64,000 nucleotides of DNA. Source: Thermoplasmata archaeon (GTDB lineage: Archaea; Thermoplasmatota; DTKX01; DATEUP01). The position numbers were made by a program, and so were the translations under genes. Each line of letters opens with the position of its first letter. The stretch's first letter is position 1. Positions 36,607 to 42,591 of the stretch are shown here, one piece after another. The notes beneath the pieces were generated by a model. That model had not been told where the DNA came from, made no database searches, and saw only the letters and a program-made list of their open reading frames with translations. The stretch lies in contig JBGQKI010000010.1 in assembly GCA_041499475.1 (NCBI GenBank), forward strand, positions 1,049 through 65,048, written 5' to 3'.

Positions 36607-37044
36607 TTGAAGCTCCGGCGCCCCCTGCCGTTGGAAACCGAAGCGCTAGGAGCGTTGCTCTTCGATGCCTACCGCGGCACCGTCAATGACGAAGGGGAGG
36701 ACTTGCCCGCGGCGGTGGCGGAGGCGGAGGGGTACTTCGCGGGGAAGCACGGCAGGCCGATGCCCGACTCCTCGGTGGTCGCGTGGCGGGGCGACCTGCC
36801 GGTCGGCGGATGTTTTGTCGGGTGGTGGGCGGCGCGCGACTGCCCATTCATCGTGTTCGTGGCCGTGCGCGAGGAATCGAGAGGTGTCGCCGTAGGGCGG
36901 CTCGTGCTTGGCGAATCGGTGCGCCGCCTGGGGCGGGACGGCGAGCGGGAAGTGCGGGCGGTAATCACGAAAGGGAATGGCGCGTCGCGGACGCTTTTCC
37001 ACGCCTGCGGCTTTGAGGACCTCGGCCCCACCGAGCCGCGTTAG
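36607..37044 (+). CDS. GNAT family acetyltransferase
   Basis: FVAVREESRGVAVG (motif A) and VITKGNGASRTLFHACGF (motif B); TTG start inferred. Confidence 0.8.
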   Translation: MKLRRPLPLETEALGALLFDAYRGTVNDEGEDLPAAVAEAEGYFAGKHGRPMPDSSVVAWRGDLPVGGCFVGWWAARDCPFIVFVAVREESRGVAVGRLVLGESVRRLGRDGEREVRAVITKGNGASRTLFHACGFEDLGPTEPR

Positions 37045-37460
37045 AGGGTAACCTCGGTGTTCACAAGGAGCGCGCGCACCGTACCGTCGTCCTTCGTCTC
37101 GCGCACCACGCGAAGGAGCACGGCGCGCGCGTCGTTCTCGGCGATGTACGCCATCCACATGATGACCTCGTTGTCTTCGGCGCCGACGCGCTTCTTGGCG
37201 CCCTGCTTTTCGAGCAGGCGGTTGGCAAGGTCGGCGAGGTCGAAGTTCGAGAGGCGCGCGGTGTGGGACTGGGAGCCCACGGCGTCGTTCCAGCGCTTGG
37301 CGACCTCTGCGGAAAGTGCCGAAAGGAACATGGATTCCTTTACGGGGATGTCGCCCTTCTTGTAGACCTCGACGTCGGTGCCGCGGGGGAACTGGTTGGG
37401 GTTTTCGGAGAATCCGTAATAGGCGCGGGCCGCTTTGCGGGCGACATCGAGGCGCGCCAT
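37041..37460 (-). CDS. Hypothetical protein (139 aa), probably co-transcribed with the NGG-repeat gene
   Basis: Globular-looking ORF with coding-like codon use, starting 26 nt after the upstream stop. Confidence 0.7.
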   Translation of the reverse strand: MARLDVARKAARAYYGFSENPNQFPRGTDVEVYKKGDIPVKESMFLSALSAEVAKRWNDAVGSQSHTARLSNFDLADLANRLLEKQGAKKRVGAEDNEVIMWMAYIAENDARAVLLRVVRETKDDGTVRALLVNTEVTL

Positions 37461-37486: not shown

Positions 37487-40400
37487 TCACGCGATAAACT
37501 TTCGGGCGCGGCGGCGCGAAAGGCCGGCGATGAGAAGGACGCCGACGGCGGGGACTGCGATGTCTTGGAATTCGGGGACATCGAGCGGCTTGATGTTGGG
37601 CTCGCTCGCCGGGTCGGCAACGGGGGGAGGTGGTACCAGCGCCCGCGTCCCCTGGTCGTTGCCGACGACGAGCACCTGGTCGAGGTCGTCGCGCACGCCC
37701 TGCCAATCAGTCGCGTAGGCGGTGACCGTGATGTTGCGGGCGGTGAGGTTCTGCACAGGGATGGGCGCAGAGATCTCGAGGGCGCGCGCGCCGACTCCCA
37801 CGAGGGGCCTCGACTGCGGGACGAGGAGCCACGAGGCCGGCGGGCCTGCCTCCCAACGGTAGAACTTCGCGCCATCCACGGGCAAAACTTGGCCGCCCTT
37901 GCCGTCGATGCGCACGGCGAAGTCGTACCCGTGGCCGCCGCTCGAGAACCCGGTCGCGGTATCGTTGTCGGTGTCGGCCTGGAGCCAGACGAAGTCGGCG
38001 CCCGGGTTCGGTGGCGAAGGAGCCGAGGGGCCCCCGCCGCCACCGCCGCCGCCGCCGGGCACGCTGAGCGTGGAGGAGAGGCGGATGGGCACGACCGCGC
38101 CCTCAAGCGGAGAGGCGCCAAAGGAAATGAGGAACGAGGTCTGGACGCCGCTGACATTGCCAGCCATGGAAAGGATGTCGATGTGGGCGTCGTTCGCGTC
38201 CGTGGGGCGGTCGGAAACCGCCGACCGGTTCGCCCAGTCGAGGGTGTTGCCGTCGATGCGTATGGTGGAGGGGGCGCCGCCGATGTACGAGAGGGGCTGC
38301 GCGTTGGCCGCGACGGCGCCGTGCACGACCGTGACGAAGGTGGTGGAGCCCACTTGGATGTCGCTTGCGCTTTCCAGGTTGATCCGCAGCGATGTGCCCT
38401 GCACGGCGTTGGTGGGGACGTGCTCGACGACGGCAAGCAGGTTGATCGTGCTGCCCGGCGCGACCGAGACGGGCGCCGCGAAGGTGAACATCGCGGGAGA
38501 CTGCTGCTGGAGCGCGGTCGGGGCCGAGGTGAGCCGCTCGGTCTGCTCGGGCAAGCCGTTGCCGTTGGAGTCGTTCCAGACCGAGACGGTGGCGGGGTCG
38601 GCCGGGGCGCTCGGGCTGTAGTCCGCCGAGAGGCGGATCGCGCTGACTTGGGCGGCTGACGCAGATGGGTTGGCAACCACGATGGAGAGCATAGGCAAGG
38701 GTGTGGAGGCGCCCGGCGTAAGCTCGCCGGGGGCCACGGCCGTGACGGTCGCCGACAGGGCATTGCCCGCAAGGGTCGCCGGCGCAAAGTTGGTGTCGGT
38801 GCGCTCGGCGTTGGCGCTGTCGAGGCCGCGCAATTCGAAGATCGCGCGCGCGCTGCCGATGCCGCCGCTCCCGGGGCCGGAGGAAAGGCCCGTCAGCGTG
38901 CCCTCGATGGTGGTCCCGTGGAGGGCGATCTGGAGGCCGCCGGCGGTGTCGAAGCCGGAGAAGTCGTAGGGTTGGACGCCGGGGCGGTTCGCCCATGCGC
39001 GGGTCGAGGAGCTCTTGAGGACGCCGTCCCACCCGTAGACGTCTACGAGGCGGTCGATGCCGAGGTCGTGGTAGGCGTACCCGGTGCCCGCCGACCCGTC
39101 GACGTCCACAAGCAACACGAAGTGGTCGGCCATTTTGGGGAAGGGGCCCGGCCGGGCGAAGAGGTCGCCGGCGGCTTGCGCCTCGAACCAGAGCCGACCG
39201 CTGTCGGCGCGGAGCGCGTACTCGCGCAGGTCGATGTTGGGGGGAAGTCCGGTGCTGGCGTCGGCGGCGTCGGTGTAGTATAGAGCGCCGGTCCCGGCCC
39301 AGTCGGCAAGGTCGCCGTCGACGACGGGGCCGCGCGGCGCGCCGCCGAAGGGGATGACCGTGATGAGCAAGACGACGACGAGGCCCGCGACGAGGCCGGA
39401 GAGGACCGTCTGGCGGCGGTTTTGAGCCTGGACGAGGGGGGCGGATGTGCCATTGACGCGGCCCCCGTTCACGCGGCCGCCATTTACGCGACCCCCGTTG
39501 ACTCGGCCCCCGTTCACGCGACCCCCGTTCACGCGACCCCCGTTCACGCGGCCGCCATTGACTCGGCCTCCATTCGTCTGGCCGCCATTCACGCGGCCGC
39601 CATTGACACGACCTCCATTCACGCGGCCACCGTTCGTCCGACCGCCGTTGACGCGACCCCCATTCACGCGGCCACCGTTGACTCGGCCGCCATTCACGCG
39701 GCCGCCATTGGTCCGGCCGTTGCGCGGCTCCATCGCACCCGTCGGGGGAGCGACGGGCGCGGCGGGCGGGATGATCTCGGCGATCGGCACGCGCGGGGTG
39801 GGCCGGACGGAGCTGACAACGACCTCGACCTCGTCCTCTTCTTCGTGTTCGACGACCGCTGGCGCGGGCGGCGCTTTCGGCGCCCCTGCAGCCGCGGCCA
39901 ATGCGGCGGTGGCCGGCGGGGCCTTGACGGGCGCCGGCGATGGAATGTGGGGCCCTTCATCCTCGCCTTCGCCTTCCAGGAGGCCTTCGAGTTCGGAGAT
40001 GAGGTCCTCCTCCTCGAGCGCGCCAGGTGCCGCCTTGCCGCCCTCGGCGACGGGCTTGGCGGAGGGGCCTTCCTCGGAGAGGAGCGTTTCGAGCTCCAGC
40101 ATGAGCGTGTCTTCCTCTTCGGGCGCTGGCTCCGGCTCAGGCTTTGGCGCCAAGGGAGCGGCAGGCGCCTCCCACCCGGGCTGCACCAGTCCGACCTTCT
40201 TCAGCGTGTCCAGCACGCGCTTCTGTGCTTCATCGCCGGCGGCCTCCGCCTTGGGAAGCTCCGCGGCGGGCGGCGGTGCCGCGGGCGCAGCGGGGGGAGC
40301 GCGGGGCGCCTGCACCTTGGGCTCGGCGGCCCGCCGCTCCGGGGCGGCGTGCTTCTCCGCCTCGAGCCCGAAATCGGCCATCAGGTCGTCAAGCTCGAGT

Positions 40401-40636
40401 TCGTCCTCTTCCTTGGCGGTGGGCTTCTGCTCGCCCTCGTCGCCTTTCTTCGCGATCTCGGCGAGGAACCTGTCGAGGTCCTCCTCGCCGACCCGCGCAG
40501 GGGCCTTGCCCTTGTCGGCCTTCTTGGCCGCTTCCTCTTCCTCGGGGCCCTCGTATTTCGACGCGATCTTCTTCCAGCGGTCGAGGAAGTCCTTCGTCAT
40601 TTTCTTCTCAGAGTCGCCGCCCTCTTTGTCCGACAT
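37487..40636 (-). CDS. 1049-aa protein: acidic disordered N-terminus, (R/Q)(V/T)NGG repeats, TM helix, extracellular domains with two IDG..DW (CBM9/DOMON-like) units, PEF-CTERM-like tail
   Basis: ATG 40636 (MSDKEGG); repeats at 39447-39724; TM VLSGLVAGLVVVLLITVIPF; VDGDLADW and IDGNTLDW; C-terminus VPEFQDIAVPAVGVLLIAGLSRRR. Confidence 0.85.
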   Translation of the reverse strand: MSDKEGGDSEKKMTKDFLDRWKKIASKYEGPEEEEAAKKADKGKAPARVGEEDLDRFLAEIAKKGDEGEQKPTAKEEDELELDDLMADFGLEAEKHAAPERRAAEPKVQAPRAPPAAPAAPPPAAELPKAEAAGDEAQKRVLDTLKKVGLVQPGWEAPAAPLAPKPEPEPAPEEEDTLMLELETLLSEEGPSAKPVAEGGKAAPGALEEEDLISELEGLLEGEGEDEGPHIPSPAPVKAPPATAALAAAAGAPKAPPAPAVVEHEEEDEVEVVVSSVRPTPRVPIAEIIPPAAPVAPPTGAMEPRNGRTNGGRVNGGRVNGGRVNGGRVNGGRTNGGRVNGGRVNGGRVNGGQTNGGRVNGGRVNGGRVNGGRVNGGRVNGGRVNGGRVNGGRVNGTSAPLVQAQNRRQTVLSGLVAGLVVVLLITVIPFGGAPRGPVVDGDLADWAGTGALYYTDAADASTGLPPNIDLREYALRADSGRLWFEAQAAGDLFARPGPFPKMADHFVLLVDVDGSAGTGYAYHDLGIDRLVDVYGWDGVLKSSSTRAWANRPGVQPYDFSGFDTAGGLQIALHGTTIEGTLTGLSSGPGSGGIGSARAIFELRGLDSANAERTDTNFAPATLAGNALSATVTAVAPGELTPGASTPLPMLSIVVANPSASAAQVSAIRLSADYSPSAPADPATVSVWNDSNGNGLPEQTERLTSAPTALQQQSPAMFTFAAPVSVAPGSTINLLAVVEHVPTNAVQGTSLRINLESASDIQVGSTTFVTVVHGAVAANAQPLSYIGGAPSTIRIDGNTLDWANRSAVSDRPTDANDAHIDILSMAGNVSGVQTSFLISFGASPLEGAVVPIRLSSTLSVPGGGGGGGGGPSAPSPPNPGADFVWLQADTDNDTATGFSSGGHGYDFAVRIDGKGGQVLPVDGAKFYRWEAGPPASWLLVPQSRPLVGVGARALEISAPIPVQNLTARNITVTAYATDWQGVRDDLDQVLVVGNDQGTRALVPPPPVADPASEPNIKPLDVPEFQDIAVPAVGVLLIAGLSRRRARKFIA
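39447..39724 (-). repeat. 15-bp tandem coding repeat: 17 full (R/Q)(V/T)NGG units plus flanking partial units
   Basis: Units such as gcccccgttcacgcg / gccgccattcacgcg / acccccgttcacgcg span 39461-39715; synonymous positions vary while the amino acids are conserved. Confidence 0.95.
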
Positions 40637-40691
40637 GTGGCCAACTCCGTGAAGTGCGCTGGTTGCACCAAGCGGGTGTCCAGGGGATGAG

Positions 40692-40759
40692 GTTTTTCTT
40701 CGAAAAACGGAATTGACTATCTGAGAACCGGAATTATCTATCTTATTACCGGAACGATC
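40692..40759. promoter_or_regulatory. AT-rich upstream region with an inverted repeat and 21-bp-period direct repeats
   Basis: GTTTTTC-TTC-GAAAAAC (40692-40708); units aCGGAATTgaCTATCTgAgaA (40707), cCGGAATTatCTATCTtAttA (40728), cCGGAAc (40749). Confidence 0.6.
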
Positions 40760-40779
40760 ATGGCCGGGCCAGGATCCCT

Positions 40780-42591
40780 TCACTCCACGGTGACCGTCTT
40801 GGCCAGGTGCCGGGGCCGGTCGATCGAGCAGCCGCGCAGGTCGGCGATGTGGTACGCGAGCAGCTGGAGGGCGACCGTGACGGCCACGGGCGCAAGCAGG
40901 GGGTCGGTCTCCGGCAGGAGCACGATCTCCTCGGCCACGCCCTTGAGTTCGGTGTCGCCCTCCGTGCCGATCGCAATGATGGGCGAGCCCCGCGCGTTGC
41001 ACTCGCCGATGTTGGAGAGCATCTTCGGGTACATCGCGTCCCGCACGGCGATCGCGACCACCGGGAGCTCGGGCCCGAGGAGCGCGAGCGCGCCGTGCTT
41101 GAGTTCGCCGGCCGCGTAGGACTCGGCGTGGACGTAGGAGATCTCCTTCAGCTTGTGGGCGCCCTCGAGCGCGGCGGCGAAATTAACGTGGCGGCCGATG
41201 AAGTAGACGTCCTCGACCTGCGCGTAGCGCTTGGCGATGTCGAGGATGCGCTCGTTCTGCCACAGGACGCTCTGCACGTCCTGCGGGAGCCGGCGCAAGT
41301 GGCCCTGGTAATAGCGCAGCTTCTCTGGCGAGAGTTCGCCGTTGCGCCGCCCGACGGAGAGGGCAAGAAGCGCGAGGCCCACGATTTGGGTCGTGAAGGT
41401 CTTGGAGGCCGCGACGCCGATCTCGGGGCCCGCGCGCGTGTAGAACGAGCGGTTGACGTCGCGGGTGATGGAGGAGCCCACCACATTGGTGACGGCAAAG
41501 GTCGCGCTGCCGCGCCGCTTGGCTTCGCGCAGCGCGTTGAGAGTGTCGAGGGTCTCGCCCGACTGGGTGATCGCGACGATGAGGGCGTCCTCCGGGAGCG
41601 ACTCGCTGTATCGGTACTCGGAGGCGATCTCGACCGAGGAGGGCACGCGGGCGATCGTCTCGATGAGGTAGCGGCCGACCATCCCGGCGTACGCGGACGA
41701 GCCGCAGGCGAGGAGCTTGACGCGCCGGACGGGCTTGAGGCCCTCGGTGATCGCGTCGATCTCGGCGTCGCCGATGCGCCCGAGCAGGCAATCGGTGATC
41801 GCGCGCGGCTGCTCGAAGATTTCCTTGAGCATGAAGTGCTTGTAGCCGGCCTTCTCGGCGGCCTCGATGTCCCAGTCGATGGTGGACGGCGCGCGGCGGT
41901 GTTCGGAGAGGTCGCCAAGCGCGCGCAGGGCGAACCCCTGGGGCGTGAGCGCCGCGACCTCGCCGTCCTCGAGGTAGACGACGCGGCGCGTGTGGCGCAG
42001 GAGCGCCGGGACATCCGAGGCGATGAACATCTCGCCTTCCCCCACGCCAAGGACGAGGGGGTTGTCGCGGCGCGCGCCGACGAGCACGCCCGGCTCGCCC
42101 CCGTGGGTGGCCACGACGGCGTAGGTGCCCTCCACTTCCTTGAGGGCGGAGGCGACGGCTTCGACGAGCTTCCCTTTGTAGTCGCGTTCGATGAGGTGGA
42201 CGAGGACCTCGGTGTCGGTCTCCGAGCGGAAGACGTGGCCGGCGGCCTTGAGGCCTTCGCGCAGGGCCGCGTGGTTCTCGATGATGCCGTTGTGGACGAT
42301 GGCGATCTGGCCGGTGCAGTCGGTGAACGGGTGGGCGTTGGCATCCGTCGGCTTGCCGTAGGTGGCCCAGCGCGTGTGGCCAAGGCCCCACGAGCCGTGC
42401 AGCGGGCGGGTGGCGAGCAGCGCACGTTCGAGTTCGTCGACGGAGCCCGCGCGCTTGAGTATAGCAACACCCGAGGGGCCGTTGACGGCAAGGCCGGCGC
42501 TGTCGTAGCCGCGGTATTCGAGGCGGTGCAGGCCTTCGATGAGGATGGGCTGGGCTTCGCGGGGGCCTGTGTAGCCGATGATTCCGCACAT
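40780..42591 (-). CDS. glmS: Glutamine--fructose-6-phosphate aminotransferase
   Basis: MCGIIGY (N-terminal Cys), LEYRGYDSAG, GHTRWATYG, HNGIIEN, SETDTEV, SQ-type TQSGETLDT, GVAASKTF, KLKEISY, YAAGELKHG, PRHLAKTVTVE. Confidence 0.96.
   Translation of the reverse strand: MCGIIGYTGPREAQPILIEGLHRLEYRGYDSAGLAVNGPSGVAILKRAGSVDELERALLATRPLHGSWGLGHTRWATYGKPTDANAHPFTDCTGQIAIVHNGIIENHAALREGLKAAGHVFRSETDTEVLVHLIERDYKGKLVEAVASALKEVEGTYAVVATHGGEPGVLVGARRDNPLVLGVGEGEMFIASDVPALLRHTRRVVYLEDGEVAALTPQGFALRALGDLSEHRRAPSTIDWDIEAAEKAGYKHFMLKEIFEQPRAITDCLLGRIGDAEIDAITEGLKPVRRVKLLACGSSAYAGMVGRYLIETIARVPSSVEIASEYRYSESLPEDALIVAITQSGETLDTLNALREAKRRGSATFAVTNVVGSSITRDVNRSFYTRAGPEIGVAASKTFTTQIVGLALLALSVGRRNGELSPEKLRYYQGHLRRLPQDVQSVLWQNERILDIAKRYAQVEDVYFIGRHVNFAAALEGAHKLKEISYVHAESYAAGELKHGALALLGPELPVVAIAVRDAMYPKMLSNIGECNARGSPIIAIGTEGDTELKGVAEEIVLLPETDPLLAPVAVTVALQLLAYHIADLRGCSIDRPRHLAKTVTVE

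What the first reader, a model, noticed from the sequence alone, without database searches (positions are those of the whole stretch)
39447..39724. (R/Q)(V/T)NGG pentapeptide array under protein-level selection
There are 17 complete 15-bp units plus partial ends. Third positions vary freely (CGC/CGA/CGT, GTG/GTC/GTA, AAC/AAT, GGC/GGG/GGT/GGA) while the peptide is almost invariant, so this is an old, selected repeat rather than recent slippage. It lies immediately N-terminal of the TM helix, so is probably cytoplasmic and juxtamembrane. The +1-per-unit basic array follows a long acidic disordered region. Asn-Gly favours beta-turns and spontaneous deamidation to isoAsp, so a beta-solenoid/amyloid-like strand, an RGG-like nucleic-acid or condensate module, or a deamidation timer are all conceivable (inference). 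I recall similar NG-rich repeats in other Thermoplasmata membrane proteins but know of no assigned function.
Basis: partly seen in the sequence, partly recalled or inferred. Interest (0 to 1): 0.65.

Follow-up and report, generated by a model that had tools for sequence, protein, structure and literature searches.

The report
Asn-Gly repeat tail of archaeal surface protein
The repeat is real and strongly conserved at the protein level: it is a local, unusually regular form of a short Gly-x-Thr/Val-Asn-Gly motif that sits just inside the membrane in a large, undescribed family of Thermoplasmata surface proteins, and its function is still unknown.

Summary
Window 39446-39724 (minus strand) encodes RNG + 17 x (R/Q)(V/T)NGG + RVNGT inside a conserved 1049-aa gene (37487-40636, minus).

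Unit-to-unit differences fall on third codon positions (397, against 42 and 58 at first and second). Synonymous sites are as scrambled as genome codon usage allows. dN/dS against an 80%-identical ortholog is 0.016 for the array, 0.29 for the neighbouring disordered region and 0.20 for the ectodomain.

The array is cytoplasmic, juxtamembrane and peptide-selected. It is not a fixed old structure: copy number runs from 3 to 22 among close relatives, and several relatives have codon-homogeneous, recently expanded arrays.

The main new result is context. RVNGG is abutting G-R-V-N-G units, a period-5 variant found in one genus. The underlying motif G-[L/R]-[T/V/I]-N-G has period 4 or 6 elsewhere. 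It precedes the membrane helix in nearly all members of a multi-copy Thermoplasmatota family: variable cytoplasmic domain, NG repeats, TM helix, CBM9/DOMON-like ectodomain, PEF-CTERM.

No Pfam, NCBIfam or literature match exists. AlphaFold2 predicts coil (pLDDT about 30). A pentapeptide-repeat beta-solenoid is unlikely. The best guess is a flexible, basic turn-repeat tether or docking tract.

The parts
39446..39724 (-). The repeat array: RNG + 17 x (R/Q)(V/T)NGG + RVNGT (residues 305-397). It is best read as abutting G-R-V-N-G motifs.
39461..39715 (-). The 17 complete consensus units (residues 308-392): 14 RVNGG, 2 RTNGG, 1 QTNGG.
39347..39430 (-). Basic stretch QAQNRRQ (res 403-409) and TM helix TVLSGLVAGLVVVLLITVIPF (res 410-430). 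This is the signal-anchor, with the N-terminus inside the cell.
   Evidence: (helix in both AF2 models)
37487..40636 (-). The whole host gene, 1049 aa. Order: conserved N-terminal helix, acidic Pro/Ala-rich disordered region with four more conserved short motifs, NG array, TM helix, ectodomain, IPEF-type C-terminal sorting tail.
39725..40636 (-). Cytoplasmic N-terminal region (res 1-304), net charge -34. Conserved motifs lie at res 1-29, 81-94, 137-151, 175-186 and 207-222.
38750..39322 (-). First ectodomain module, starting VDGDLADW (res 439-446). A beta-sandwich that resembles CBM9/DOMON folds; it is the family hallmark. The low coordinate (38750) is approximate.
   Evidence: HMM 188.7 bits on this gene; pLDDT 88.8; 2ivf_C, 7nwn, 1i82; E 1e-4 to 8e-4
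37490..37579 (-). PEF-CTERM-like tail VPEFQDIAVPAVGVLLIAGLSRRRARKFIA (res 1020-1049).
   Evidence: one exosortase/archaeosortase-family gene in the genome

Best explanation
The array is the cytoplasmic, membrane-proximal 'NG-repeat' module of a large, undescribed family of Thermoplasmatota surface proteins.

Family architecture: a variable cytoplasmic N-domain, then a run of G-[L/R]-[T/V/I]-N-G motifs, then about 20 residues with Arg/Lys, a TM helix, CBM9/DOMON-like ectodomain modules and a PEF-CTERM tail. In this genus the motifs abut directly (GRVNG-GRVNG), which gives a perfectly regular period-5, +1-per-unit array.

Shown here:
- Every residue of the unit is under strong purifying selection.
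- The number of units is free to drift (3-22) through duplication and loss of 15-bp or 45-bp blocks.
- The monomer is predicted to be unstructured.

Inferred:
- Each unit is a beta-branched residue followed by an Asn-Gly tight turn.
- The tract therefore behaves as a flexible, extensible, positively charged tether, comparable to elastin VPGVG or flagelliform-silk GPGGX turn repeats.
- It probably lies against the anionic inner face of the membrane. It links the acidic, motif-bearing cytoplasmic tail to the membrane anchor of a doubly anchored surface protein.
- It may also present many copies of one short docking motif.
For: - Real and selected: codon-position differences 42/58/397; synonymous against non-synonymous 362 to 58. 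Synonymous sites are saturated relative to genome codon usage. dN/dS is 0.016 in the array, 0.29 in the IDR and 0.20 in the ectodomain, against an 80% ortholog. The arrays are collinear, with T-units at the same places.
- Conserved: all seven full-length orthologs and the paralog family P0011-P0017 carry RVNGG arrays directly before the TM helix.
- Family context: 110 of 167 retrieved proteins have a TM helix followed by DGxFxDW. Of these, 107 have at least 3 [TVIL]NG motifs in the 160 aa upstream, and 80 have PEF near the C-terminus.
- Motif logo: G 96% / L42 R30 / T50 V33 I14 / N / G. Period 4 (353 cases) or 6 (412), period 5 only 9. The last NG to the TM start is a median of 21.5 aa. Net charge is positive in 97% of arrays.
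- Arrays such as GMVNGK x20 and GLTNGN xN occur in other families of the phylum at GC 0.32-0.68.
- In the window's own genome, dense [TVI]NG clusters occur only in the five family members.
- The ecto-module HMM hits 42 of 401 genomes and 29 of 162 genera, multi-copy.
- Unstructured: AF2 gives coil, pLDDT 28-31, over res 307-397.
- Length-tolerant: 6-22 units in orthologs; 3-13 within one 90%-identity cluster; 6 against 16 units between genes with 100% identical flanks.
Against: - No experiment exists, and no partner or lipid binding has been shown.
- The AF2 run used only 7 sequences and cannot see oligomers.
- A passive linker would not normally keep G, T/V, N and G nearly invariant across families whose ectodomains share only 20-25% identity. 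This points to a specific recognition or chemical role that the tether model does not explain.
- Many relatives have uncharged GLTNGN units, so electrostatic membrane adhesion cannot be the universal function.
- Some of the copy-number variation may be collapse of short-read assemblies.
Confidence: 0.4

Rival explanations
1. Multivalent docking array. Each G-h-[T/V]-N-G is a short linear motif bound by a conserved cytoplasmic partner, for example an assembly, sorting or signalling factor. Copy number would set avidity, so that the surface protein is clustered or coupled to the cell interior.
For: The four-residue core is strictly conserved whatever the spacer (period 4, 5 or 6) and across GC 0.32-0.68. 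dN/dS is 0.016. The motif is exclusive to this family in the genome. The distance to the TM helix is conserved. The N-domains of relatives include KaiC-like ATPases and TPR. A 139-aa gene is conserved immediately downstream in all orthologous loci.
Against: No partner has been identified. None of the genome's 15 KaiC-family matches lies on the window's contig; the closest to any family member are about 12 kb away, on C3 and C18. Copy number varies more than threefold among near-identical proteins.
Confidence: 0.25
2. Ordered repeat fold. The array would form a pentapeptide-repeat-like right-handed beta-helix, or an Asn-ladder / amyloid-like beta structure, possibly only on oligomerisation.
For: It has period 5 and 17-21 units. 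A weak phmmer match to designed pentapeptide-repeat solenoids (4yfo E=0.004; 5dn0, 5dqa E about 0.02) gives a sensible register of G(i-2) R(i-1) V(i) N(i+1) G(i+2). The composition is Asn/Gly-rich.
Against: Pfam Pentapeptide families do not match; only Pentapeptide_2 appears, at E about 1. AF2 gives coil at pLDDT about 30. Homologous tracts in relatives have period 4 or 6, which does not fit a 5-residue-per-side helix. Copy number is unconstrained (3-22) and not in multiples of four. The interior would be Val/Gly rather than Leu/Phe/Ala.
Confidence: 0.08
3. Deamidation-based charge switch or timer. The 18 exposed Asn-Gly sites deamidate spontaneously to Asp/isoAsp, so each +1 unit becomes net 0 with protein age. 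This would change membrane adhesion or the interaction with the acidic tail, with PIMT handling the isoAsp.
For: Asn-Gly is invariant in the motif. In model peptides Asn-Gly is by far the fastest dipeptide to deamidate, and disorder accelerates it (PMC4682632). The tract is predicted to be disordered. The genome encodes a PIMT at 208.8 bits. Some relatives alternate LTDG with LTNG (G028).
Against: The case is purely chemical inference. PIMT is near-universal: 14 of 14 control genomes have it. Asn-Gly is equally explained as the classic type I' turn former. There is no evidence on the organism's protein lifetimes or internal pH.
Confidence: 0.07
4. Selectively neutral low-complexity filler. The tract would be kept uniform by slippage and gene conversion, with no sequence-specific function, or would be an RGG-like nucleic-acid binder.
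For: Arrays in relatives are homogeneous and copy number is variable. The composition is Arg/Gly-rich.
Against: In the window array the units have diverged at nearly every synonymous site, yet the peptide is unchanged. Homogenisation therefore cannot explain the uniformity. There is no RGG tripeptide, and Arg is replaced by Leu or Met in most relatives.
Confidence: 0.05

Closest known systems
G-[L/R]-[T/V]-N-G juxtamembrane tract of the Thermoplasmatota TM / CBM9-like / PEF-CTERM surface-protein family
   Same: The motif core is the same. The position is the same: after a variable cytoplasmic domain and about 10-25 aa before the TM helix. The DGxFxDW ecto module and the PEF tail are shared. 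Length is likewise variable.
   Different: Here the units abut, giving period 5; elsewhere the period is 4 or 6. Arg is fixed at the hydrophobic/basic position and Val is preferred over Thr. In this lineage the units are highly diverged at synonymous sites.
Pentapeptide-repeat proteins (Pfam PF00805 clan; A(D/N)LXX; MfpA, Qnr, Rfr32; designed 'beta1' solenoids 4yfo/4yc5)
   Same: Five-residue tandem period. Weak sequence match (E=0.004) in a plausible register.
   Different: Below every Pfam threshold. The centre residue is Val rather than Leu/Phe. AF2 predicts coil. Homologous tracts have period 4 or 6. There are no capping elements, and copy number is free.
Elastomeric beta-turn repeats: elastin VPGVG, flagelliform spider silk GPGGX (own knowledge)
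   Same: Gly-rich pentapeptide with a two-residue turn former plus Val. Predicted to be disordered and extensible. Length-variable arrays.
   Different: The turn is Asn-Gly rather than Pro-Gly. The tract is charged, cytoplasmic and membrane-proximal. The organism is archaeal and there is no homology.
RGG/RG low-complexity motifs of RNA-binding proteins
   Same: Arg- and Gly-rich, and disordered.
   Different: There is no RGG tripeptide. Asn and Val are invariant. Arg is dispensable in relatives. The tract is tethered at a membrane.
PEF-CTERM / archaeosortase substrates (NCBIfam TIGR03024; discussed in PMC5244752)
   Same: The C-terminal (I/V)PEF + TM helix + Arg-rich tail. One exosortase/archaeosortase-family gene is present in the genome.
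   Different: Classical substrates have a cleavable N-terminal signal peptide. This family has a long cytoplasmic N-region and an uncleaved-looking signal anchor preceded by the NG array.

Membership tests
Pentapeptide-repeat proteins (PF00805 and related Pfam models) | Significant match to a Pfam pentapeptide model | tested here: not met
   Whole protein: 0 Pfam families at E<=1. Array alone: only Pentapeptide_2 (PF01469) at E=0.74-1.5, 9-10 bits against a cut-off of 26.4.
Pentapeptide-repeat proteins (PF00805 and related Pfam models) | Consensus A(D/N)LXX with a Leu/Phe centre and a small i-2 residue | tested here: not met
   The register from the phmmer alignment to 4yfo is G-R-V-N-G. The centre is Val and i-1 is Arg, not Asp/Asn.
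Pentapeptide-repeat proteins (PF00805 and related Pfam models) | Folds as a right-handed quadrilateral beta-helix | tested here: inconclusive
   AF2 gives coil, pLDDT 28-31, but the MSA held only 7 sequences and the model is a monomer. Period 4 or 6 in homologous tracts argues against this fold.
Thermoplasmatota NG-repeat / TM / CBM9-like / PEF-CTERM family (undescribed) | Three or more G-h-[T/V/I]-N-G motifs within about 160 aa upstream of the TM helix | tested here: met
   18 motifs, ending 12 aa before the TM helix.
Thermoplasmatota NG-repeat / TM / CBM9-like / PEF-CTERM family (undescribed) | DGxFxDW-type beta-sandwich module directly after the TM helix | tested here: met
   The family HMM (A2) scores 188.7 bits on G000:C10. 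AF2 gives pLDDT 88.8. Foldseek finds DOMON-like 2ivf_C and CBM9 7nwn/1i82 at E 1e-4 to 8e-4, TM about 0.4.
Thermoplasmatota NG-repeat / TM / CBM9-like / PEF-CTERM family (undescribed) | C-terminal PEF + hydrophobic helix + Arg cluster | tested here: met
   VPEFQDIAVPAVGVLLIAGLSRRRARKFIA. This rests on a regex, not an HMM.
PEF-CTERM archaeosortase substrates (TIGR03024) | Match to the TIGR03024 model above its cut-off | tested here: not met
   NCBIfam reports nothing for this protein. A relative, P0021, scores 20.3 against a cut-off of 23. The model is short, so the motif is judged by eye only.
PEF-CTERM archaeosortase substrates (TIGR03024) | A cognate archaeosortase in the genome | tested here: met
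   One PF09721 (Exosortase_EpsH) match at 53.3 bits, G000:C34. Its subtype (ArtC or not) was not determined.
RGG/RG motif proteins | Clustered RGG or RG dipeptides or tripeptides | tested here: not met
   Each Arg is followed by Val or Thr. The array contains no RGG or RG.

The most novel reading that the evidence does not exclude
The G-h-[T/V]-N-G tract is a dedicated, previously unrecognised cytoplasmic module of archaeal envelope biology. It could be a multivalent docking platform that couples the archaeosortase-anchored glycoprotein coat of Thermoplasmatota to a cytoplasmic partner. It could also be an Asn-Gly deamidation-gated electrostatic switch that reports the age of each surface protein. 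The regular, Arg-bearing RVNGG form in this genus would be the cleanest natural substrate on which to test either idea.
Probability: 0.2. Interest if true: 0.75.

Novelty: new variant of a known kind. Interest (0 to 1): 0.5.

Why it matters
Thermoplasmatota are abundant and mostly uncultured, and how they build their envelopes is poorly understood. This repeat marks a multi-copy protein family found in 29 of 162 sampled genera that has no Pfam or NCBIfam model and no literature.

The repeat is one of the two most constrained segments of this protein, alongside the conserved N-terminal motif. Yet it looks like low-complexity filler and would normally be masked and ignored.

It is built entirely around Asn-Gly, the most chemically labile dipeptide in proteins. 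Its strict conservation in a disordered cytoplasmic tract therefore needs an explanation. If the tract is a docking or timing module, it would be a new way of linking a cell-surface coat to the cell interior in archaea.

The regular RVNGG form, with measurable selection and natural length variants, is a convenient model for experiments.

Tried and rejected
- Pfam and NCBIfam on the whole protein and on the isolated array gave nothing usable. Fusolisin at E=0.09 and Pentapeptide_2 at E about 1 were rejected as noise.
- The PDB sequence search gave only weak hits to designed pentapeptide solenoids. I treated this as a lead and rejected membership (see the membership tests).
- Literature string searches for RVNGG, GLTNG, LTNGNG, TNGLTNG, GRVNG and GMVNG returned only chance hits.
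- Many 'hits' to the array region in the 1.84-billion-protein search are unrelated pentapeptide arrays (GRVEA, GRVDE, GRVNN, ARLNS, GRTDS). I rejected them as periodic low-complexity matches.
- The second word-index homology search on residues 398-640 returned only 3 proteins and was uninformative.
- DNA-level or RNA-level explanations were rejected. There is no Rfam match and no promoter or terminator excess. The plus-strand ORF is a shadow frame, because variation is confined to the third positions of the minus frame.
- A link to KaiC in this genome was looked for: none of the 15 KaiC-family matches is on the window's contig.
- Whole-protein AF2 with a 7-sequence alignment gave a poor model (mean pLDDT 42.6). 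I used it only for the disorder call and the helices.
Full report
**1. What is there**

The window has 67% GC. The finding lies in a minus-strand ORF (37487-41002). Its real start is the ATG at 40636, because the N-terminus MSDKEGGDSEKKMTKDFLDRWKKIASKYE is almost invariant in seven full-length orthologs.

Residues 305-397 read RNG, then 17 units of (R/Q)(V/T)NGG, then RVNGT. These are window coordinates 39446-39724, with the 17 complete units at 39461-39715. Tandem Repeats Finder reports period 15 with 17.4 copies, and a slightly better-scoring period of 45.

**2. Is the peptide under selection?**

Yes.
- Among the 17 units the first and second codon positions are fixed, apart from one R>Q and three V>T. 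All five third positions vary.
- Pairwise nucleotide differences by codon position are 42/58/397. Pairwise codon differences are 362 synonymous against 58 non-synonymous. Fourteen of the 17 DNA units are distinct, against three peptide variants.
- I estimated genome codon usage from 800 long high-GC3 ORFs. Two units share a codon about as often as, or less often than, independent draws would give: R 0.53 vs 0.41, V 0.42 vs 0.41, N 0.46 vs 0.745, G 0.33 and 0.47 vs 0.445. Synonymous sites are therefore saturated.
- The rare codon AAT is used 9 times in 17, against 15% genome-wide (p=3e-4).
- I compared the gene with an 80%-identical ortholog from a metagenome (P0002, locus L038). The arrays are collinear: T-containing units sit at the same ordinal places, there are three unit gains and one loss, and aligned-unit identity is 0.835 against 0.86-0.91 in the flanks.
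- Nei-Gojobori dN/dS for the same pair is 0.016 in the array (dN 0.02). It is 0.29 in the acidic disordered region, 0.20 in the ectodomain and 0.10 in the N-terminal motif.
- dS in the array (1.27) is inflated because units cannot be matched one-to-one. The contrast in dN is robust.

**3. The array is selected but not static**

- A DNA pattern for three RVNGG units occurs in 5 of 401 Thermoplasmatota genomes, all in the window's own GTDB genus. The reversed-pattern control gave 0. The pattern codes Arg as CGN only, so AGR-coded arrays in AT-rich genomes would be missed.
- Within that genus, arrays range from heterogeneous to nearly uniform. The window array has mean pairwise unit identity 0.74-0.76. 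The G027 ortholog has 0.906. The own-genome paralog on contig C18 has five identical units.
- Orthologs carry 6-22 units.
- Within clusters of at least 90% identical proteins the counts are 18/18/18 (the window's cluster), 21/22, 8/9, 8/10, 9/10, 6/16 and 3-13.
- For the 6/16 pair I compared the DNA. The flanks (876 and 1968 nt) are 100% identical. The ten extra units are additional copies of a 45-bp three-unit block.
- That pair reflects either very recent unequal recombination or collapse of a short-read assembly.
Across the genus the peptide is fixed while the number of units turns over.

**4. Context: a family-wide motif**

- A search of 1.84 billion cluster representatives returned 1655 hits at E<=1e-3.
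- Of the 167 proteins in hand, 110 have a TM helix followed by a DGxFxDW motif. Of these, 107 have at least three [TVIL]NG motifs in the 160 residues before the helix, and 80 have PEF near the C-terminus.
- Outside the close family the logo is G(96%) - L42/R30 - T50/V33/I14 - N - G.
- The spacing between motifs is 4 (353 cases) or 6 (412 cases). Spacing of 5 is rare (9 cases).
- The last motif lies a median of 21.5 residues before the TM helix. 97% of arrays are net positive.
- Genomes from other families of the phylum show GMVNGK x20 (same order), GLTNGN arrays and RTNG arrays, at GC 0.32-0.68. The conservation is therefore at the peptide level, not the DNA level.
- RVNGG is best read as G-R-V-N-G units that abut directly. 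This is a genus-specific period-5 form of the family motif.
- In the window's own genome there are five (I/V)PEF-tailed proteins. All five, and no other ORF, carry dense [TVI]NG clusters before a TM helix.
- An HMM of the TM helix plus first ecto module hits 42 of 401 genomes and 29 of 162 genera, usually with about seven or more copies per genome.
- Cytoplasmic N-domains of relatives include KaiC-type ATPase, TPR, zinc ribbons and HhH. This fixes the NG tract on the cytoplasmic side, consistent with the positive-inside rule.
- Source names for relatives are only 'hypothetical protein' or 'lamin tail domain-containing protein' from Thermoplasmata.
- Earlier notes of this scan on other genomes describe the same family and a G-[L/R]-T-N-G tract. 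My results were obtained independently and agree with them.

**5. Structure**

- AF2 on the whole protein (7-sequence MSA) is poor overall, with mean pLDDT 42.6. It gives clear helices for res 9-28 and for the TM helix. Residues 307-397 are coil at pLDDT 28-31.
- AF2 on the TM helix plus first ecto module with a 26-sequence family alignment is good (pLDDT 88.8).
- Foldseek places that module next to the DOMON-like gamma subunit of ethylbenzene dehydrogenase (2ivf_C) and CBM9 modules (7nwn, 7nwo, 1i82), at E 1e-4 to 8e-4 and TM about 0.4. This supports a glycan-binding or ligand-binding beta-sandwich outside the cell.

**6. Comparison with known repeats**

- No Pfam or NCBIfam family matches.
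- The only sequence resemblance is a weak phmmer match to designed pentapeptide-repeat solenoids (4yfo, E=0.004), in the register G(i-2) R(i-1) V(i) N(i+1) G(i+2).
- Four results speak against a quadrilateral beta-helix: the Pfam models fail, AF2 predicts coil, the homologous tracts have period 4 or 6, and copy number is free and not in fours.
- An RGG-type function is unlikely. There is no RGG, and Arg is replaced by Leu or Met in most relatives.

**7. Most likely mechanism (inference)**

- A beta-branched residue followed by Asn-Gly is the classic sequence of a tight type I' turn (own knowledge). A chain of such turns separated by Gly resembles elastomeric turn repeats such as elastin VPGVG and flagelliform-silk GPGGX.
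- I therefore read the tract as a flexible, extensible, mostly basic tether next to the inner membrane face. It would join the variable cytoplasmic domain (here an acidic, net -34 tail with five conserved short helical motifs) to the anchor of a doubly anchored surface protein.
- The near-invariance of G, T/V, N and G is stronger than a passive linker needs. A multivalent docking motif for an unknown partner is therefore a serious rival.
- Asn-Gly is the fastest-deamidating dipeptide, and disorder accelerates the reaction (PMC4682632). The genome has a PIMT. A deamidation-driven charge switch cannot be excluded, but it rests on chemistry alone.

**8. Verdict**

The feature is a new, regular variant of an unpublished but widespread juxtamembrane NG-repeat module. 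Its function is unknown. I put the tether reading at about 0.4.

Noticed in passing
window 37041-37460 (-): A 139-aa gene of unknown function (MARLDVARKAARAYYGFSENPNQFPRGTDVEVYKKGD...) starts about 27 nt after the stop of the surface-protein gene. It is conserved in the same position in four orthologous loci (L038, L037, L054, L055) and about 500 nt downstream in L033. It has no Pfam hit on record. It may be a co-transcribed partner.
   Followed up: partly
window 40708-40754 and surroundings (40640-40780): The intergenic region between glmS and the gene start is AT-rich in a 67% GC genome. It holds about 2.2 copies of a 21-bp direct repeat (TTCCGGTnnTnAGATAGTnAA on the coding strand). This is probably a promoter or operator element. 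A GGAG lies 9 nt before the ATG.
   Followed up: no
window 39971-40636 (-), residues 1-29, 81-94, 137-151, 175-186, 207-222: Five short motifs in the otherwise fast-evolving acidic cytoplasmic tail are almost invariant across orthologs of 44-80% identity. They are EKKMTKDFLDRWKKIASKYE, ELDDLxxDFGLE, AQKRVLDTLKKVGLV, EDTLLLELExLL and LEEEDLIAELEGLLE. They look like short linear binding motifs.
   Followed up: partly
window 38033-38056 (-), residues 861-868: A Gly8 run (a GCC/GGC trinucleotide repeat) in the ectodomain is conserved as G5-G8 in all orthologs. It lies between two beta-rich modules.
   Followed up: no
G000 contig C18:35324-39637 (-): An own-genome paralog (P0015, 1289 aa) carries GLTNG-type motifs followed by two RVNGG blocks. 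One block has five DNA-identical units, which indicates a very recent expansion. A near-identical copy elsewhere has one unit fewer.
   Followed up: partly
window array 39461-39715: Rare codons are enriched in this array: AAT 9 of 17 against 15% genome-wide, and GGT and CGA are also raised. They are not enriched in the codon-homogeneous arrays of relatives (G027 has 0 of 16 AAT). This may reflect selection against slippage-prone identical DNA units.
   Followed up: partly
loci L054 and L055 (metagenome orthologs P0007 / P0202): Two assemblies from different samples carry genes with 100% identical flanks but 6 against 16 repeat units. The difference consists of copies of a 45-bp three-unit block. 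This is either real hypervariability or assembly collapse.
   Followed up: partly
G000 contigs C3, C6, C10, C18, C35 and C34: The genome has exactly five (I/V)PEF-tailed proteins, all from this one family. It has a single exosortase/archaeosortase-family gene, on C34 (24198-24860).
   Followed up: partly
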